Shown here: positions 10,911-63,215 of the stretch, in pieces | How positions within the stretch are numbered: position 1 is the stretch's first letter | How the letters are laid out: the number at the start of each line of letters is the position of its first letter | DNA from: Candidatus Latescibacterota bacterium | GTDB taxonomy: Bacteria; Latescibacterota; MWCZ01 | Assembly (NCBI GenBank): GCA_022706085.1 | Contig: JAKJDF010000007.1 | Location: 10,474 to 74,473 of the forward strand | DNA: 64,000 bases | Direction of reading: 5' to 3' | Notes under the pieces: model-generated | Seen by the model: the letters and a program-made list of their open reading frames with translations, nothing else | What the model was told of the DNA's origin: nothing | Databases searched by the model: none | Program-made: the position numbers and the translations under genes

Positions 10911-11327
10911 ATGACCTTTGGAGCGCGCATGCTGGTTGCCGTTGTGGCGGTGTTTGCGGCGTGCGGGGTTCCGCACGCGGAACCGAACGCGGATTCCAGC
11001 CGTACTCGTCCGTGCAGCGCGCGGACCGCGTTTGCGCTCGGTTTGGTGGTGCCGGGGGGAGGGCAGTTCTACCTCGGCGACCGGGCGGGGGGGATTCAGG
11101 CCGTGATTACGGATGTGATTTTGTTTGAGGCGCTTCGGAGGAACGACGCCACGATTTCCGGGGTTGTTTTCTTCATCGGCGCCGTACACGTTGTTGAGGC
11201 GTTGTTTGCCGCGCGCGAGTGCAGACTCAGAAACGCCGCTTTGCAGCCCCGGATAACGAGTGCCTTCCCGGATCGGCGCGAAGCTCCGGTGATCGGGCTG
11301 GCGGTGGCGGTCCCGATTTCCCACTGA
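10911..11327 (+). CDS. hypothetical secreted protein / possible lipoprotein
   Basis: Start MTFGARMLVAVVAVFAACG preceded by GGAGG; signal-peptide-like N-terminus; no recognisable family. Confidence 0.3.
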   Translation: MTFGARMLVAVVAVFAACGVPHAEPNADSSRTRPCSARTAFALGLVVPGGGQFYLGDRAGGIQAVITDVILFEALRRNDATISGVVFFIGAVHVVEALFAARECRLRNAALQPRITSAFPDRREAPVIGLAVAVPISH

Positions 11328-11372
11328 CCGGCCTTCCGGCGCGCAAGCGCCGCGCAGAAAGAACCCGTAAGA

Positions 11373-12851
11373 ATGCAACGCAGACGAACGATATTGATCA
11401 TCGCGGACGGGACGCGCCCGGACGTGCTCGGGGAGTTGATCGCGGCGGGGGAACTTCCGGCGATTGCGCAGGCGTTCCCCGAGCCGGCAATGCGCCGCCC
11501 GGCGGTGAGCGTGTTTCCTTCGACGACGGGGCCGGCGTTTCTTCCGTTTCTGACGGGAATGTACCCGGGGGATTTGAACATGCCGGGCATCCGCTGGTTT
11601 GACCGCGGAGCGTGGGCCGGGAGGAGCGGTGATCCGCCGTTCCGGAGCTACGTTGGCATCGAAAGCTACCGGATGAACGCGGATTTCCGGCGGGACGTGC
11701 CGACGCTTTTCGATATTCTGCCTGATTCGGCGAGCATCTTCAGTTCGGTGAACCGGGGTGTTCCGTTCCGGGGGAACATGACTGGCCTCTCGCGGGCGTG
11801 GTGGTGGTTGTTCGCGCACTGGACCGACCGCTGGGATGTGGTTGGCGTGCGGGCACGGGCTCGGTTGCTCGCGTCGCTGGAGATGGATCCGGAATTCGTG
11901 TTCTGCCTGATTCCGGATGTGGACAACTATTCGCACCTTTCGCACTGCCGGTCGGAGCCGGCGATTGCGGCGTACCGGCGGCTGGATCAGACGATCGGGG
12001 AGCTTTTCCGGGAGCTGGAACGGAGACGCTGGCGCGAGGATACGCTGGTGGTGATGGTGGCCGACCACGGGCACTCGGCGGTTCATACGCATCTGGGGTT
12101 GCCGGAGTGGATGGCGGAGCGGGGGTTCATGCCGTTCTACTACCCGCGCATCTGGAATCGTTCGTTTGATTCGGCGGTGATGGTGTCGGGCAACGGGATG
12201 GCGCATATCCACCTGCGGCGGGGGGGTACCTGGACGGCTGGACCTGTGCCGGACGAGGAAGTTGTGCGGGTTTTCGGGGCGCTGTTGGGGGCGCTGTTGG
12301 AGCGGCGTGAGATCGGGATCATCGCCACGAAGCGGAGCGACGGCGCGGTGGTGGTGCGTTCGCGGTCGGGCACGGGCGTGGTGACGCCGCTCGGGGAGGG
12401 GCATTTCCAGTACTCGACACAGGGCGGCGACCCGTTCGGGTATCGCGGCCTCGAGGGGGTGTGGAATTCGGATGATCTGCTCGAGGAGACGCTGGCGACG
12501 CGGTACCCGGACGGGCCAGTGCAGCTGGAGCAGCTTTTCCACTCGCCGCGGACAGGGGACATCGTCGTGAGCGCGGAAGTCGGGTTCGATCTGCGCGACA
12601 AGCACGAGAATCCGGAGCATTTTTCCGGTCACGGGGCGCTTCACGCCGATCACATGGTGGTGCCGTGGTTTTCGACGGCGCCTCTCCCGGATGTGCCGTT
12701 GCGGACGGTGGACGTGTTTCCTACGATCCTGCACTGGATGGGAAAGCCGATTCCGCCGGGGGTGACGGGGAAGGATCGCCTTGCGCCCGCCGTTGAGCCG
12801 GAACAGGCGGAAATGACAGGCGCGCGGACAGTTGGGGCGAGCGCCTTCTGA
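11373..12851 (+). CDS. alkaline-phosphatase-superfamily enzyme (type I phosphodiesterase / nucleotide pyrophosphatase-like)
   Basis: N-terminal TILIIADGTRPD metal-site motif and distal MVADHGHS motif characteristic of the AlkP/NPP superfamily; 492 aa. Confidence 0.7.
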   Translation: MQRRRTILIIADGTRPDVLGELIAAGELPAIAQAFPEPAMRRPAVSVFPSTTGPAFLPFLTGMYPGDLNMPGIRWFDRGAWAGRSGDPPFRSYVGIESYRMNADFRRDVPTLFDILPDSASIFSSVNRGVPFRGNMTGLSRAWWWLFAHWTDRWDVVGVRARARLLASLEMDPEFVFCLIPDVDNYSHLSHCRSEPAIAAYRRLDQTIGELFRELERRRWREDTLVVMVADHGHSAVHTHLGLPEWMAERGFMPFYYPRIWNRSFDSAVMVSGNGMAHIHLRRGGTWTAGPVPDEEVVRVFGALLGALLERREIGIIATKRSDGAVVVRSRSGTGVVTPLGEGHFQYSTQGGDPFGYRGLEGVWNSDDLLEETLATRYPDGPVQLEQLFHSPRTGDIVVSAEVGFDLRDKHENPEHFSGHGALHADHMVVPWFSTAPLPDVPLRTVDVFPTILHWMGKPIPPGVTGKDRLAPAVEPEQAEMTGARTVGASAF

Positions 12852-54537: not shown

Positions 54538-54613
54538 TCGGGCGTAGCTCAATCGGCAGAGCGGGTGGCTGTTAACCACTAGGTTACAGGTTCAAGTCCT
54601 GTCGCCCGAGCCA
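54538..54613 (+). tRNA. tRNA-Asn (anticodon GUU)
   Basis: Manual cloverleaf: 7-bp acceptor stem (U1-A72), D-arm GCUC/GAGC, anticodon stem GGUGG/CCACU with loop CUGUUAA (GUU), T-arm ACAGG-UUCAAGU-CCUGU, discriminator G, encoded CCA; 76 nt. Confidence 0.85.
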
Positions 54614-56859: not shown

Positions 56860-58566
56860 TCAGGAATCCGCCTCACGGCTCACCGGAAGAATGAGCGATG
56901 AAGGGTATTTCGGGCTATGGAAAACCTTCTGCTCGGCGATCACCGTCTCTGCATCGAGAAGGTCATCTCTCCCTGTACCGTGGTTGCGATCATGATTGGG
57001 AAAGTCGCTGCTGCATATATCGAGTCGAATGCGGTGCCCCTTGCGGAAGCAGCACGAGGTAATTCCCATGCGAACGTGAAATCGGGTCACTTCACCGGGA
57101 ATCAGGAGGTCTTCCGAATCGAGTCCGTTGCGGTGCCGTGCGCGGACCATCCCGTAACACACCTCCATCGCTGCTCCACCGGGATCATCGTCCACGAGCC
57201 GGACAAAGAAATCAGTATCAACCGCAGAAGACGACGCGTACAGCACGACTTCCGGGTTTCCCACCACCTCGACGTCCTCTTCGAGTGGCGCGGTGCGGTA
57301 GCGCAGGATATCGTTCCGATAATCGAGGCGGCGGCGGTCGGACACGTTGTAGAAGTACGCCGTGTCCCACGGCGTCGGGACAGGATCAAACGGGTCGTGC
57401 GTGAACGTGTCGGGAGGCTCGTTTGTCCGGGGTTCGGCCAGCAAAGCTCCGGAACCTTCCGGAAGATGGGCGTCTCCCTCGCCTGCGAGGTAAAAGGTCG
57501 TGAGGTGGACGTTCGGCGGCGGCCACGTCTCCGCCGATTTCCACGTTCCCGATCCCATGACAAAGTAACGCACTGCCGGCTCTCGCGCTGTGCCATTGTC
57601 AATGCCCTTCAGCCAGTAGTCGAACCAGCGAATCTGCATCAGCTGGATGTTCACTTCAGCATCCTAGCCAAAATCCAACTCGCCCTGTCTGCGTCGCCCG
57701 AGGCTTACGTGATTCCAGGGCCCGATGATGACTTTTGTCTGATTGCGCGCTTTCTCAGACCGTGCATTCCTCCGCATGCCGATGAAATGCTCGATGCTGC
57801 AGCAGTGATCAAACCAGCCGGTGAAGTCGAGGTTGGGCACGTCAATGTCCCTGTGGGCCTCGTCAAATCTCCAGGGGCGCCGGGCAGGATGACGCAACCA
57901 GTCGGCCACCTGCTCTGCGAGCGGGGAAGGTAGATACCGGGCGACGTGGACCCACGGCAACAGCCCGAGCATTCTGCCCTGTTCGAGTTCATCCCATATC
58001 TTCGCTGCCTCCGCGGGTGTGTGAGGCGGAGGAAGGCCCTTCCGGCGCCGGAGATCCGGAGCGATGGTAGTCACCCACCATTTGGCGCGACGCGCCGGCT
58101 TGAACGCGCCGGGCCAGTCTATATCCGTCAATTCCGTCGGGATTGAGACGGCGCTCATCGCCACCAGATGTGGCGGCCGGAGCCGGGCAAGCTGGTACTG
58201 CATCCAGGCGTTGTACGAAACGCCGAATGTGCCGACCTTCCCGTTGCACCAGGGCTGAAATGCAGCCCATTCCACAGTGTCGTAGCCGTCCTCGGCGTCA
58301 CCCGTGTTCTCCTCAGAGAACACCTTGAATTCGCCCTCAGACGCGTAGCGACCGCGGGTATCCTGGGTGACGACCACGTACCCCGCACGGACAAAGTCCT
58401 CGAACCCGCCCTGAGCCTTGCCGTACGGCGTCCTCTGCACAAGCGCGGGGAAACGGCCTGATGAATCCGGACGGAACACGTTGGCGCGCAACGTGATGCC
58501 GTCCCGCATTGGCACGGGGACGTCACGTTCGACGATGATGCCCAACGCACCGGTCTCTTGCTCCAT
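56860..58566 (-). pseudogene. CocE/NonD-family hydrolase (S15 peptidase / alpha-beta hydrolase) interrupted by one in-frame TAG
   Basis: ORFs 57664..58566 and 56860..57654 are in the same frame, separated only by TAG (plus-strand CTA at 57664-57666); together 568 aa, matching the N-terminal hydrolase domain (VPMRDGITLRANVFRP...) plus C-terminal beta-sandwich. Confidence 0.65.
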
Positions 58567-60674: not shown

Positions 60675-60736
60675 GATGGAGGGGGTGGAAAGGGCGCGTG
60701 GGAAGGCATTCAAACGGCATCCTTTTCGGTACCCGG

Positions 60737-61279
60737 TTACACCTCCTTCACGGGTAAACCGAACCAGGCAAGGGGGACTTCATTGAACTTGTAATGGCAA
60801 TTCACGCTTTGGATATAATCCAGCACATCCTTGTATTCTGGTTTCTTGAACCAATCGTTCAGGACGTAGACGTATTCGACCCGTAATCCCAAGGGACTGA
60901 CCAGTTTCAGATACTGTTTCCGTTTGAAATCGCAGGTTTGCAGTTTCTCGTCCACCGACCCTGCTACCTGTTGATATTTGACTTCGATGATGAACAAAGT
61001 TTCCCGCACAATGACCAAGAGCGCATCGTCCGGAAGCAGTTTCTTACTGATCTTGCTCTGCCAATCGATTCCGCGCTCGCGAAGAAACCGGTAAAAATCA
61101 TGCTTCCTGAAGCACCTGGCAACCAGCTTGCCTTCGAATAAAACATCCACGCCGGCCTTGCCATCGACTTGGACAATGTCATAACCAGGGATTTCCCGCA
61201 GAATCGTTGCCAGATCAACTCTGCTTTCGAAGCGCAACCCCGTGCGCGTGTTCGCTCCACCTGACCCACCGGATTTCAT
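60737..61279 (-). CDS. putative Type II restriction endonuclease (PD-(D/E)xK fold)
   Basis: 180 aa; candidate catalytic motif LLPDD...LFIIEVKYQ (PD...E-V-K); start ATG overlaps the methyltransferase stop (ATGA); local GC clearly below the window average. Confidence 0.55.
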   Translation of the reverse strand: MKSGGSGGANTRTGLRFESRVDLATILREIPGYDIVQVDGKAGVDVLFEGKLVARCFRKHDFYRFLRERGIDWQSKISKKLLPDDALLVIVRETLFIIEVKYQQVAGSVDEKLQTCDFKRKQYLKLVSPLGLRVEYVYVLNDWFKKPEYKDVLDYIQSVNCHYKFNEVPLAWFGLPVKEV

Positions 61280-62124
61280 GTTGATACCTGTGCGAAATTC
61301 AGCGAAGATAGTCTTTGATTGATGGCGTTCCCCAGTCGCTGCATCGACAATTTGACGAACTCGGCTTCCAGTTCGCAGCCAACGAATCTGCGGTTTAGGA
61401 GAACACACGCGACTCCGGTCGTCGAGCTACCGGAAAACGGGTCAAACACCACGTCACTTTCAACTGTGCTCGCCAGAATAATCCTCTCCAAAAGAGCCAC
61501 TGGTTTCTGGGTGGGATGTTTTCCGAACTCCTTTTCGGCGCCATTTGGGGCAGGAATGCTCCAAACAGACTTCATTTGCCTGCCGGCATTGAGTTCACGC
61601 ATTTTGTCGTAATTGAAACGATGTCGAGACTTACCACTCCTCGCAGCCCATATCACCGTTTCCGTCGAATGCGTGAAGTAACGACAAGACAAGTTGGGCG
61701 GAGGGTTTGGTTTTTCCCAAGTTATGTCGTTCAGGATTTTCATCCCCAGTTGCTGCATCGCATAACCGACAGAGTAAATCACGTGGTGAGTTCCCGAGAC
61801 CCAAATTGTGCCATCCGGCTTCAGCAGCTTTTGGCATCTTGAAAGCCATGTCCTGTTGAACTGATGATTCGTTTCCGCTCCATTGGACCTGTCCCACTGT
61901 CCCTTGTCAACTTTCACCATCCTTCCAGCGTGACAAGTAATACCGCCGTTAGAGAGGAAATAGGGCGGGTCCGCGAAGATCATGTCAAACCTGCCATCGG
62001 GGTATTTTCCGATGAGCATGTCCATGAACTCAATGCAGTCTGCTTGATAGAGCCACACACCGAACTCGTCATTGCGGAACACACATTGATTCGGCGCGAA
62101 TTCCGAGCTTTCCATCATTACCAT
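61276..62124 (-). CDS. DNA methyltransferase, beta-class amino-methyltransferase (probably N6-adenine)
   Basis: Motif IV DPPY (IFADPPYF) precedes motif I FDPFSGSSTTGVA, the order diagnostic of beta-class N6A/N4C methyltransferases; low-GC region. Confidence 0.85.
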   Translation of the reverse strand: MVMMESSEFAPNQCVFRNDEFGVWLYQADCIEFMDMLIGKYPDGRFDMIFADPPYFLSNGGITCHAGRMVKVDKGQWDRSNGAETNHQFNRTWLSRCQKLLKPDGTIWVSGTHHVIYSVGYAMQQLGMKILNDITWEKPNPPPNLSCRYFTHSTETVIWAARSGKSRHRFNYDKMRELNAGRQMKSVWSIPAPNGAEKEFGKHPTQKPVALLERIILASTVESDVVFDPFSGSSTTGVACVLLNRRFVGCELEAEFVKLSMQRLGNAINQRLSSLNFAQVST

Positions 62125-62363
62125 CGGGAAGTCTTCTTTCTCCCCGATCCCACCGTATCCTTCCAAAGCGGACTCCCGATATTTGTCATACCGTTCGTGC
62201 CCTGTGTTTGTTGCACACGCCCCTTATCGAGGAGGCAACTGGGCATTTGCAAAACGCGAGGCAACAACTGAAAAACCCTTGAAACCGGGCGGATGAGCGT
62301 CCTCAACCTGATTACAGGCGCGCTCTGTTCGTGGAGTTATGTAACGCAACAACCCTGGACAAG

Positions 62364-63215
62364 TCAACCCCAAAGCCGCGAGTGCTTTCTCGCGTTATCC
62401 CACCCCGGTGGCTTGAGAAGCCTCGCTGCGCGCTTCTTCGCCTCTGACAGGAAAACCGCGCGATCCGTGAAGCGTGAGTTGCCGATGTCGGTTTCCAACA
62501 GGAGGTTGCCACGGTAGTCGAATGAATGGAACAGCTGCCGGAAGCGTTCCCAGTCGGTGGTGCCCTCCCACGGGAGAACGTGGGCGTCCCTCGAGCCGTC
62601 ATTGTCGTGGATATGGACAGTGAAGAGGCGGTGCCCGAAGCGCTCGAGCGTGGCGAAACTGCCGTCTTTCACGTGCTCGTGCCCGGAATCGTAGCAGAGG
62701 CCGACGTGCGGATCGGTGAATTCGTTCAGGAACGCGGTCAGCACGTCGTCGTATTCCTGTTTCTGGCCGTTTTCCATCGCCAATCTGACGCCGGTTTTGC
62801 CCGCGTAGTCCGCGAGCGCGCCGACGCTGCGGCGCCCCCGTTCGATCATCCGGTTCCGGGTGTCGCCTTCCGGGATGCCGTACGGCTGGATGAGGTGGAT
62901 GACGACGGTGCGGCTTTCCAGTTCTGATGCGGCGTCCATGACGAGCTGGCAGAGCCGGACGGATTCCGCGCGCTCGGCGTCATCAAGCGAGAAGAGCCGG
63001 TCGCCTTCGGGGAACGGTGCGTGGACGGAATCAACCGTCAGGCCGTGTTCTTCCATCAGTCTGCGGATCCCGGCTCTCCCCTCGGTGGTGGCATACCCCG
63101 AGTGCCCCGGCCGGCCGCCCAGCGCGACGACCTCGAACCCTGCCGCGGCGATCAACGCGACAGCTTCCGGGAACGGCAGGTTGTAGTCAAATGACGTGCA
63201 GATAGCAGGTTTCAT
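62364..63215 (-). CDS. sugar phosphate isomerase/epimerase (xylose-isomerase-like TIM barrel)
   Basis: 283 aa with conserved acidic/His metal ligands in TIM-barrel pattern (VHAPF, HLIQP, ENGQ, HIHDND, ETD); ATGA overlap with upstream gene. Confidence 0.75.
   Translation of the reverse strand: MKPAICTSFDYNLPFPEAVALIAAAGFEVVALGGRPGHSGYATTEGRAGIRRLMEEHGLTVDSVHAPFPEGDRLFSLDDAERAESVRLCQLVMDAASELESRTVVIHLIQPYGIPEGDTRNRMIERGRRSVGALADYAGKTGVRLAMENGQKQEYDDVLTAFLNEFTDPHVGLCYDSGHEHVKDGSFATLERFGHRLFTVHIHDNDGSRDAHVLPWEGTTDWERFRQLFHSFDYRGNLLLETDIGNSRFTDRAVFLSEAKKRAARLLKPPGWDNARKHSRLWG

What the first reader, a model, noticed from the sequence alone, without database searches (positions are those of the whole stretch)
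60737..62330. Low-GC Type II restriction-modification island
A beta-class amino-methyltransferase (DPPY before FxGxG motif) is followed by a 180-aa ORF with a PD...EVK nuclease-like motif, overlapping by ATGA. The roughly 1.6-kb segment has visibly lower GC (about 50%) than the 65% surroundings, which indicates horizontal acquisition. The nuclease is short and not obviously similar to well-known enzymes, so its specificity is unknown and may be new.
Basis: partly seen in the sequence, partly recalled or inferred. Interest (0 to 1): 0.6.

Follow-up and report, generated by a model that had tools for sequence, protein, structure and literature searches.

The report
GATC-type restriction-modification island, compact nuclease
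This is a real, horizontally acquired two-gene restriction-modification cassette, but it most likely targets the very common site GATC rather than a new one; its small nuclease belongs to a very widespread family that Pfam, NCBIfam and PADLOC do not name as a restriction enzyme.

Summary
On the minus strand, a 296-aa beta-class DNA methyltransferase (61276-62166) and a 180-aa PD-(D/E)XK nuclease (60737-61279) overlap by ATGA. They sit in the lowest-GC stretch of the window (50.6% against 61.7%). Near-identical relatives have an empty site: window 60690-62451 is replaced there by about 103 nt. A more distant relative carries a decayed copy at the same place.

The idea of an unknown, possibly new specificity is not supported. 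Close homologs of the nuclease (62-79% identity, 80 genomes from many phyla) sit next to the same beta methyltransferase, next to a Dam/DpnM-family methyltransferase alone, or next to both. When both are present, the gene orders are those of the DpnII and MboI cassettes. The methyltransferase is 55% identical to M.LlaDCHIB (GATC) and about 42-43% identical to the rhizobial and Azospirillum hits presumed to be CcrM-type. REBASE assigns its Neisseria ortholog to GATC.

A weak but above-control profile match aligns the nuclease with the catalytic half of DpnII-family enzymes. The best reading is therefore a DpnII/MboI-like GATC system with a compact restriction enzyme. The nuclease family is large (at least 822 clusters at 50% identity) yet is not assigned to any family by Pfam, NCBIfam or PADLOC.

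The parts
61276..62166 (-). Beta-class N6-adenine DNA methyltransferase gene, DpnA/MboIC/LlaDCHIB-like. 296 aa from TTG 62166; alternative ATG at 62124 gives 282 aa.
   Evidence: PF01555 198 bits. 55% identity to M.LlaDCHIB of pSRQ700. Best PADLOC model MTase_II PDLC03371, 306 bits. Homolog N-termini support the long form. NCBI names it 'Modification methylase DpnIIB'.
61960..61971 (-). Motif IV, DPPY (catalytic), residues 66-69
   Evidence: Read from the sequence; invariant in alignment A2.
61414..61446 (-). Motif I, FDPFSGSSTTG (AdoMet binding), residues 241-251. It lies downstream of motif IV, which is the beta-class order.
   Evidence: Sequence; invariant D242 P243 F244 G246 S247 T249 T250 G251 in A2.
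61276..61279 (-). ATGA overlap: nuclease start codon ATG (61279-61277) overlaps the methyltransferase stop TGA (61278-61276). Translational coupling is inferred.
   Evidence: Sequence. The same 4-nt overlap is called in L001-L003 and L005-L008.
60737..61279 (-). 180-aa PD-(D/E)XK nuclease gene, the putative restriction endonuclease
60977..61030 (-). Catalytic core: D84 (61028-61030), E99 (60983-60985), K101 (60977-60979). The conserved upstream acidic residue E18 is at 61226-61228.
   Evidence: D84 is invariant; E18, P83, E99 and K101 are at least 90% conserved in 74 diverse family members. In the model, D84 precedes strand 87-91 and E99/K101 lie in strand 94-101.
62167..62363 (-). Upstream non-coding part of the island (presumed promoter/5' region). 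No controller-protein gene.
   Evidence: No ORF of note. No sigma-70 consensus hit on the minus strand. The region lies within the segment absent from the empty-site relative.
60690..62451 (.). Full extent of the inserted or deleted segment (1762 nt), including the last ~30 codons of the neighbouring AP_endonuc_2-family gene
   Evidence: blastn against L127/L131: homology 63400->62452 (93-96%) and 60689->59800 (99.3%), with about 103 nt in between in L127.

Best explanation
This is a two-gene Type IIP restriction-modification cassette of the DpnII/MboI/LlaDCHI kind. The beta-class methyltransferase most likely methylates the adenine of GATC (N6). The 180-aa PD-(D/E)XK nuclease, probably a homodimer, most likely cuts unmethylated GATC in incoming DNA, using E18/D84/E99/K101 and a divalent metal. 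The nuclease gene starts inside the methyltransferase stop codon (ATGA), so nuclease synthesis is coupled to and follows methyltransferase synthesis. No controller protein is encoded. The cassette is mobile: it lies in a 1.76-kb low-GC segment that is present, absent or decayed at the same chromosomal site in related Latescibacteria. The nuclease appears to be a compact, very divergent relative of the catalytic C-terminal half of DpnII-family enzymes, without their N-terminal ~140 residues. Shown here: gene anatomy, motifs, fold class, conserved linkage, partner methyltransferase types, island polymorphism. Inferred: GATC specificity, cleavage, dimer state, coupling.
For: Anatomy and motifs.

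Linkage in 80 genomes with nuclease homologs at 62-79% identity:
- 49 loci: beta-MTase then R.
- 7 loci: Dam-like then beta-MTase then R (DpnII order).
- 4 loci: Dam-like then R then beta-MTase (MboI order).
- 9 loci: Dam-like then R then a third MTase type.
- 3 loci: Dam-like then R only.
- 4 loci: R first.

The window nuclease is as similar to nucleases with Dam-like partners (L012 79%, L017 78%) as to those with beta-only partners.

The five Dam-like partners tested pass TIGR00571 'dam' (272-295 bits, cutoff 115). Three of them were also searched against PDB: the nearest solved proteins are DpnM for L004 (1e-49) and E. coli Dam for L067 and L078 (1e-77, 3e-71).

More distant homologs (29-61%) on Lactobacillales plasmids and viral contigs also sit beside Dam-like MTases.

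The MTase is 55% identical to M.LlaDCHIB of pSRQ700, against about 42-43% for the Sinorhizobium/Azospirillum hits presumed to be CcrM-type. It fails the CcrM equivalog model (241 against 830 bits).

In Neisseria, leuS-dam-betaMTase-R is intact in strain GT4A_CT1. It is 94.6-94.9% identical to the gonococcal NgoAXI locus, where the GmATC-specific Drg replaces dam and both the beta-MTase and R are broken (PMC4269198, PMC6789123). Neisserial Dam gives 6mA-GATC by PacBio, and REBASE assigns GATC to the beta-MTase ortholog (PMC7046676, PMC6789123).

hhalign of the nuclease family against the DpnII family scores 28.7 (E 0.002). The conserved residues of both families coincide, and none of 300 shuffles reaches that score.

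Mobility.
Against: There is no biochemical or methylome evidence for this cassette or for any member of the 180-aa family. GATC is inferred from partners and relatives. The nearest solved MTase is CcrM (GANTC), 3e-58, though no DpnA-type GATC methyltransferase structure was returned for comparison. The hhalign probability is only 13.6%, and the window nuclease itself has no Pfam DpnII hit. GATC in the window is only mildly under-represented (0.78 of the Markov expectation), which is uninformative. No promoter was detected. The dimer state and cleavage position are unknown.
Confidence: 0.7

Rival explanations
1. It is a functional Type II restriction-modification system, but with a specificity other than GATC: for example GANTC like HinfI/CcrM relatives, or a new site.
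For: The best solved-structure and NCBIfam matches of the methyltransferase are CcrM. In 49 of 80 loci the only partner is the beta methyltransferase, so the Dam-like neighbours elsewhere could belong to separate systems. Specificity has not been measured for any member.
Against: In 9 + 4 loci the nuclease lies between the Dam-like gene and a second MTase gene, and in 3 loci a Dam-like MTase is the only partner. Nucleases from those loci are as close to the window protein (up to 79%) as any others. The MTase is nearer to GATC-specific M.LlaDCHIB than to the presumed CcrM-type hits. It lacks CcrM's C-terminal part: the match ends at profile position 253 of 350 and scores 241 against a cutoff of 830.
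Confidence: 0.13
2. The 180-aa protein is not a restriction enzyme. It would be a methylation-directed repair or nicking nuclease (a MutH-like partner of GATC methylation) or another housekeeping nuclease, and the methyltransferase would act as an orphan or regulatory enzyme.
For: MutH is also a small PD-(D/E)XK nuclease that reads GATC methylation. The family pairs with Dam-family enzymes. No restriction phenotype has been shown.
Against: The pair behaves like a selfish mobile module. Its GC is lower than its flanks in 92% of 73 loci. It is 75-80% identical across unrelated phyla. It is present, absent or decayed at one site in close relatives. It occurs on plasmids and viral contigs. It occupies the position of the DpnII-family nuclease in DpnII- and MboI-type cassettes. 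In the gonococcal and L128 remnants both genes are damaged: the MTase is frameshifted or truncated, and the nuclease carries a stop or invariant-site changes. MutH is absent from the fold and Pfam hits.
Confidence: 0.05
3. The cassette is intact in sequence but silent or inactive in this organism: a remnant on the way to loss.
For: No promoter-like site was found upstream. Relatives have lost the island (L127, L131) or carry a decayed copy (L128, L136). The methyltransferase would start at a TTG codon.
Against: All family-wide conserved residues of both proteins are intact. The same sequence recurs unchanged in several metagenomes (L001-L003, L134). The promoter scan covers only sigma-70 consensus and is not informative for this phylum.
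Confidence: 0.07

Closest known systems
DpnII system of Streptococcus pneumoniae (dpnM-dpnA-dpnB) and LlaDCHI of Lactococcus plasmid pSRQ700 (GATC)
   Same: The beta-class methyltransferase is 55% identical to M.LlaDCHIB. In 7 genomes, including Neisseria and Cardiobacterium, the 180-aa nuclease occupies the third position of a Dam-like / DpnA-like / R cassette. The nuclease core aligns collinearly with the C-terminal half of DpnII-family enzymes.
   Different: The window cassette has no Dam-like first methyltransferase. The nuclease is 180 aa rather than about 285-305 aa, lacks the N-terminal region, has E-x-K where the DpnII family has E-x-N, and does not reach the Pfam PF04556 or PADLOC REase models.
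MboI system of Moraxella bovis (mboA-mboB-mboC, GATC)
   Same: The order Dam-like MTase / nuclease / second MTase is found with close homologs of this nuclease in 13 of 80 loci. The MboI gene order itself is from my own knowledge of the literature (Ueno et al. 1993), not checked here.
   Different: The window has only the beta methyltransferase, and it lies upstream of the nuclease. R.MboI belongs to the DpnII family.
Neisserial leuS/dam/drg locus ('NgoAXI', NEIS0327 dam / NEIS0328 dpnIIB)
   Same: It contains orthologs of both window genes (MTase about 57-58% identical, nuclease about 65%) with the same ATGA-type junction. The literature assigns GATC there (PMC7046676, PMC6789123).
   Different: In the gonococcus the pair is broken and sits beside Drg, a GmATC-dependent enzyme. 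The papers read describe the MTase as DpnIIB-like and do not mention the third gene, the nuclease (PMC4269198, PMC6789123).
CcrM / M.HinfI (GANTC) beta-class methyltransferases
   Same: Same fold and motif order. CcrM is the best solved-structure hit (3e-58).
   Different: The window MTase scores 241 bits against the equivalog cutoff of 830, and the match covers only profile positions 7-253 of 350, so the C-terminal part is missing. Identity is lower than to LlaDCHIB.
Pfam PF20472 (PDDEXK_11)
   Same: 69 of 74 family members touch this model around the E-x-K / G-S-x-D-E-K segment.
   Different: The window protein scores 23.5 against a cutoff of 23.7 and matches only 21 residues (profile positions 61-81 of 145). 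This is a superfamily-level resemblance only.

Membership tests
Type II (IIP-like) restriction-modification system with separate M and R genes | Adjacent, co-oriented methyltransferase and nuclease genes, with linkage conserved across genomes | tested here: met
   ATGA overlap in the window. An MTase gene is adjacent in 76 of 80 related loci; 3 of the other 4 are cut by a contig end on the upstream side.
Type II (IIP-like) restriction-modification system with separate M and R genes | Nuclease with an intact catalytic site of a known restriction-enzyme fold | tested here: met
Type II (IIP-like) restriction-modification system with separate M and R genes | Site-specific cleavage that is blocked by the cognate methylation | not testable with these tools
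   This needs enzyme assays or a methylome plus a restriction phenotype.
Beta-class N6A/N4C DNA methyltransferases (PF01555), DpnA/MboIC/LlaDCHIB (GATC) subgroup | PF01555 above threshold and motif IV (DPPY) before motif I (FxGxG) | tested here: met
   198 bits against 26.7; motif positions read.
Beta-class N6A/N4C DNA methyltransferases (PF01555), DpnA/MboIC/LlaDCHIB (GATC) subgroup | Closer to characterised GATC members than to enzymes of other specificity | tested here: met
   55% identity to M.LlaDCHIB, against about 42-43% to the alphaproteobacterial hits presumed CcrM-type. The top PADLOC model is a 260-position MTase_II profile (306 bits), ahead of the 364- and 376-position models. The source record names it DpnIIB.
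Beta-class N6A/N4C DNA methyltransferases (PF01555), DpnA/MboIC/LlaDCHIB (GATC) subgroup | Methylates the adenine of GATC | not testable with these tools
   Inferred only. REBASE predicts GATC for the Neisseria ortholog (PMC7046676).
CcrM / HinfI-type GANTC methyltransferases | Reaches the NCBIfam CcrM equivalog score and has the C-terminal domain | tested here: not met
   240.7 bits against a cutoff of 830; the match ends at profile position 253 of 350.
DpnII/MboI restriction endonuclease family (Pfam PF04556) | Significant match to PF04556 and a full-length (~280-300 aa) architecture | tested here: not met
   No PF04556 hit for the window protein at E<=1. One of 74 relatives hits at E 1e-3. 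The protein is 180 aa. R.LlaDCHI, used as a control, scores 289 bits.
DpnII/MboI restriction endonuclease family (Pfam PF04556) | Remote homology of the catalytic core (profile-profile) | tested here: inconclusive
   hhalign score 28.7, E 0.002, probability 13.6%. Conserved residues are aligned, and no shuffle out of 300 reaches the score.
DpnII/MboI restriction endonuclease family (Pfam PF04556) | Occupies the R position in Dam-like / DpnA-like cassettes | tested here: met
   Architectures C and D; compare with pSRQ700 and the S. aureus plasmid cassettes.
Pfam PF20472 PDDEXK_11 | Score at or above the gathering threshold over most of the domain | tested here: not met
   23.5 against 23.7 bits, with 21 residues matched.
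MutH-type methyl-directed nicking endonuclease | Sequence or fold similarity to MutH | tested here: not met

The most novel reading that the evidence does not exclude
The 180-aa proteins would be a not-yet-characterised, minimal (~20 kDa) lineage of GATC-specific restriction enzymes: a stripped-down DpnII-type catalytic core that recognises its site without the N-terminal half of DpnII/MboI. The family is one of the more widespread restriction-enzyme families that Pfam, NCBIfam and PADLOC do not recognise. As a result, its partner methyltransferases, including the neisserial 'dpnIIB' gene, are read as orphan or as partners of other nucleases.
Probability: 0.45. Interest if true: 0.45.

Novelty: new member of a known kind. 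Interest (0 to 1): 0.3.

Why it matters
For this window the result is mostly a clarification. The island is a real, mobile restriction-modification cassette, but it very likely targets GATC, one of the commonest specificities, so it is not a source of a new enzyme specificity.

The wider point is about annotation. The nuclease family has at least 6000 sequences, falls into 822 clusters at 50% identity, and was found in more than 577 species genomes. Public records call it 'hypothetical', and it is missed by Pfam, NCBIfam and PADLOC. Automated censuses of defence systems will therefore undercount these systems and call their methyltransferases orphans. The neisserial dam/drg locus is one example: the third gene is not discussed in the papers read here.

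If the compact enzyme really cuts GATC, it would also be a small model for how a DpnII-type core reads its site.

Tried and rejected
- Sequence search of the nuclease, and of its family profile, against PDB gave nothing meaningful.
- NCBIfam and PADLOC gave no hit for the nuclease.
- A protein search of the phage collection gave no match.
- The Foldseek afdb50 library, which might have held DpnII/MboI models, was not available.
- Literature searches for PF20472/PDDEXK_11 found nothing. A search for NlaII/NmeCI/NEIS0328 was swamped by NlaIII papers, and one search failed on syntax. PMC516771 said nothing about genes downstream of dam. PMC7248222 gave no sequence information on R.CviAI.
- No flanking direct or inverted repeats suggest a transposase- or integrase-type insertion. 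No tRNA gene is next to the island; the nearest is tRNA-Asn at 54538.
- No sigma-70-like promoter or convincing terminator was found for the operon.
- GATC avoidance in the window (0.78 of expectation) is too weak to use either way.
- GANTC specificity was considered because of the CcrM hits and rejected as the leading reading for the reasons given under the rival explanations.
Full report
**What is there.** The two ORFs are real and lie on the minus strand.

The upstream gene, 61276-62166, encodes a 296-aa protein if it starts at the TTG that NCBI also uses. An ATG at 62124 would give 282 aa. Homologs begin 'MKY..FPLMVMESSEY', which aligns with the long form. The protein matches Pfam PF01555 (N6_N4_Mtase) at 198 bits against a cutoff of 26.7.

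The downstream gene runs from ATG 61279 to the stop at 60737 and encodes 180 aa. Its ATG overlaps the methyltransferase TGA as ATGA (61276-61279). It carries P83-D84 ... E99-V-K101.

GC of 60737-62330 is 50.6%, against 61.7% for the whole window. This is the lowest-GC 1.6-kb stretch of the 64 kb, about 5 SD below the mean. GC3 of the two genes is 0.59-0.61, against 0.73-0.80 for their neighbours.

The source is Candidatus Latescibacteria bacterium ADurb.Bin168. There the methyltransferase is named 'Modification methylase DpnIIB' and the nuclease 'hypothetical protein'.

**Is the small protein a nuclease?** It has no significant match in NCBIfam, PADLOC or the PDB sequences. It only grazes Pfam PF20472 (PDDEXK_11): 23.5 bits against 23.7, over 21 residues.

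It nevertheless belongs to a large family:
- 6004 hits in the 90%-clustered collection, the best 120 all about 180 aa and 75-80% identical, from many phyla.
- 822 clusters at 50% identity.
- More than 577 loci among species-representative genomes.

Across 74 diverse members, D84 is invariant. G14, E18, S78, P83, E99, K101, Q103, G107, S108, D110, E111, K112, K119, Y138, W143, F144, Y149 and D151 are at least 90% conserved. All of these are intact in the window protein.

**Linkage and partners.** I examined the 80 best genomic loci (nuclease 62-79% identical to the window protein) for neighbouring methyltransferases.

| Arrangement | Loci |
|---|---|
| Window-type beta MTase, then nuclease | 49 |
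| Dam-like (D12-class) MTase, beta MTase, nuclease (the DpnII gene order) | 7 |
| Dam-like MTase, nuclease, beta MTase (the MboI order) | 4 |
| Dam-like MTase, nuclease, then a third, permuted MTase type | 9 |
| Dam-like MTase and nuclease only | 3 |
| Nuclease first | 4 |
| No MTase seen | 4 |

The seven DpnII-order loci include Neisseria, Cardiobacterium, Moraxellaceae and Burkholderiales. The three Dam-like-only loci include Alysiella crassa. In three of the four loci with no MTase, the upstream side is cut off by a contig end.

The window nuclease is as close to nucleases with Dam-like partners (L012 79%, L017 78%) as to those with beta-only partners. The architectures therefore do not define separate nuclease subfamilies.

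I tested five of the Dam-like partners, and all pass TIGR00571 'dam' (272-295 bits, cutoff 115). Three of them were also searched against PDB. The nearest solved protein is DpnM for L004 (1e-49) and E. coli Dam for L067 and L078 (1e-77, 3e-71). All of these are GATC enzymes.

More distant homologs of the nuclease (29-61%) on Lactobacillales plasmids and on viral contigs also sit beside Dam-like and/or beta methyltransferases.

**The methyltransferase.** Its best solved relative is CcrM (GANTC, 3e-58), and CcrM is also the best NCBIfam model. However, it scores 241 bits against an equivalog cutoff of 830, and the match ends at profile position 253 of 350, so the CcrM C-terminal part is missing.

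Against annotated plasmids, the best hits after the two Neisseria records were:
- M.LlaDCHIB of Lactococcus plasmid pSRQ700, the second methyltransferase of a DpnII-type GATC system: 55% identity.
- Equivalent genes in staphylococcal Dam / beta-MTase / DpnII-family nuclease cassettes.
- Rhizobial and Azospirillum hits, presumed to be CcrM-type: about 42-43%.

The top PADLOC model is a 260-position MTase_II profile (306 bits). It ranks ahead of a 364-position MTase_II model and a 376-position orphan-MTase model.

**The Neisseria link.** The only hits of 60% identity or more among the annotated records were two N. gonorrhoeae chromosomes filed as plasmids. There the order is:
1. leuS.
2. drg, the 'dam-replacing gene', a DpnI-like enzyme specific for GmATC.
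3. A frameshifted beta methyltransferase.
4. A nuclease homolog with a premature stop, again joined ATGA-fashion.

The literature calls this locus NgoAXI and the methyltransferase 'DpnIIB-like'. In two gonococcal strains dam sits in place of drg, and GATC is then 6mA-methylated (PMC4269198, PMC6789123). In N. meningitidis, NEIS0327 (dam) gives GATC by PacBio, and REBASE assigns GATC to NEIS0328 (dpnIIB) (PMC7046676).

Neisseria sp. GT4A_CT1 has leuS-dam-betaMTase-nuclease with all genes intact. It is 94.6-94.9% identical at the nucleotide level to the gonococcal flanks. The neisserial locus is therefore a three-gene DpnII-type cassette whose nuclease is a member of the window's family. The breakage of the beta methyltransferase where a GmATC-dependent enzyme has moved in is what one expects if that methyltransferase makes GmATC. 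The papers I read do not mention the third gene.

**Relation to DpnII-family enzymes.** BLASTP of the window nuclease against R.LlaDCHI (304 aa; PF04556 at 289 bits) is not significant (E 0.47). It does, however, line up D...IEVKYQQVAGS..KL with D...IETNYYGGGGSKL.

I then ran a profile-profile comparison between the 74-member family alignment and a 9-member DpnII-family alignment. It gives a score of 28.7, E 0.002 and probability 13.6%. With a relaxed alignment threshold, the whole 180-aa protein aligns collinearly to columns 144-305 of the DpnII family. The conserved residues of both families fall on each other:

| 180-aa family | DpnII family |
|---|---|
| G14 / E18 | G161 / E165 |
| D84 | D210 |
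| E99 | E225 |
| K101 | N227 |
| G107-S108 | G233-S234 |
| W143 | W268 |

None of 150 column shuffles or 150 block shuffles reached the score (means 14-15, SD 2.5, maxima 25.7 and 26.6). The reversed alignment scored 15.3. One family member also touches PF04556 at E 1e-3.

I read this as suggestive but unproven evidence that the family is a compact, very divergent relative of the DpnII catalytic half.

**Mobility.** The module's GC is lower than its flanks in 92% of 73 loci, by 8.8 points on average. Both proteins are 75-81% identical between Latescibacteria, Omnitrophota, Planctomycetota, Syntrophobacterales and others.

A metagenome scan with the neighbouring AP_endonuc_2-family protein found several variants of this locus:
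- **Empty site (L127 and L131).** The flanks are 93-96% and 99.3% identical, and window 60690-62451 (1762 nt) is replaced by about 103 nt. The last ~30 codons of the neighbouring gene differ between the two forms.
- **Identical island (L134).**
- **Decayed island at the same site (L128 and L136),** in more distant relatives with about 82% flank identity. There the methyltransferase is cut after about residue 85 by an inserted 257-aa ORF. The nuclease has changes at conserved positions (K101R, S108W, D110F, E111R).

Because the decayed copy shares the 5' junction at flank-like divergence, the island may be older than the window lineage, and the 'empty' genomes may be deletions. Either way, it is a gain/loss polymorphism.

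I found no flanking repeats, integrase or adjacent tRNA gene.

**Conclusion and confidence.** The best-supported reading is a DpnII/MboI-like Type IIP system. The beta methyltransferase makes G6mATC, the compact PD-(D/E)XK enzyme cuts unmethylated GATC, and nuclease expression is coupled to the methyltransferase through the ATGA overlap.

I put about 0.85 on 'functional-type R-M pair' and about 0.8 on GATC given that, or roughly 0.7 jointly. The alternatives are:
- Another specificity (0.13).
- A silent remnant (0.07).
- A non-restriction role such as a MutH-like nickase (0.05).

Nothing here is biochemical. The decisive tests are DpnI/DpnII digestion or a methylome of DNA from a dam-negative host expressing the methyltransferase, digestion of methylated and unmethylated DNA by the nuclease, and a REBASE look-up.

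The finding is an ordinary kind of system and is very unlikely to offer a new specificity. Its modest interest lies in a very widespread restriction-enzyme family that general annotation and defence-system tools do not recognise.

Noticed in passing
window 56860-58566 (- strand); stop codon at 57664-57666: A Peptidase_S15 / PepX_C (CocE/NonD-type) hydrolase is split into two ORFs of 300 aa and 264 aa by a single in-frame TAG ('...GELDFG*DAEVNIQLMQ...'). It is called as two genes in the NCBI record too. This could be a pseudogene, an assembly error or read-through.
   Followed up: partly
L128 2374-3147 (also L136), at the site equivalent to window ~61911: In a related genome the methyltransferase gene of the same island is interrupted after about residue 85 by a 257-aa ORF. 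That ORF has a weak HARE-HTH match and a PADLOC REase_II match (9.5e-8). The downstream nuclease there has lost conserved residues.
   Followed up: partly
L004 6575-7393, and the equivalent gene in L012, L016-L019, L021, L025, L032, L033: A third methyltransferase type follows the nuclease in nine Dam-like / nuclease / MTase cassettes. Its motif I precedes its motif IV, it gives split PF01555 hits, and its nearest PDB relative is TTHA0409-like 2zie. Its role and specificity were not examined.
   Followed up: partly
L009 4001-4456 (N. gonorrhoeae NZ_CP119140, record position ~10933-11479): The gonococcal 'NgoAXI' locus carries an unannotated, truncated homolog of the 180-aa nuclease right after the frameshifted DpnIIB-like methyltransferase. 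Neisseria sp. GT4A_CT1 (L067) has the intact dam / beta-MTase / nuclease triad. The papers read do not mention this gene.
   Followed up: yes
L092-L115 (IMG/VR contigs): 24 viral or proviral contigs encode homologs of the nuclease (38-61% identity), several next to Dam-like and/or beta methyltransferases. Phages or prophages may therefore be one vehicle for the family.
   Followed up: partly
whole window: CTAG (5 observed, 18 expected) and TTAA (9 observed, 23 expected) are strongly under-represented relative to a Markov expectation. GATC (0.78) and GGCC (0.75) are mildly so.
   Followed up: no
window 62364-62451 compared with L127 4764-4813: The last ~30 codons of the AP_endonuc_2-family gene next to the island differ between island-bearing and island-free relatives. 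The insertion or deletion therefore remodelled the neighbouring gene's C-terminus.
   Followed up: partly
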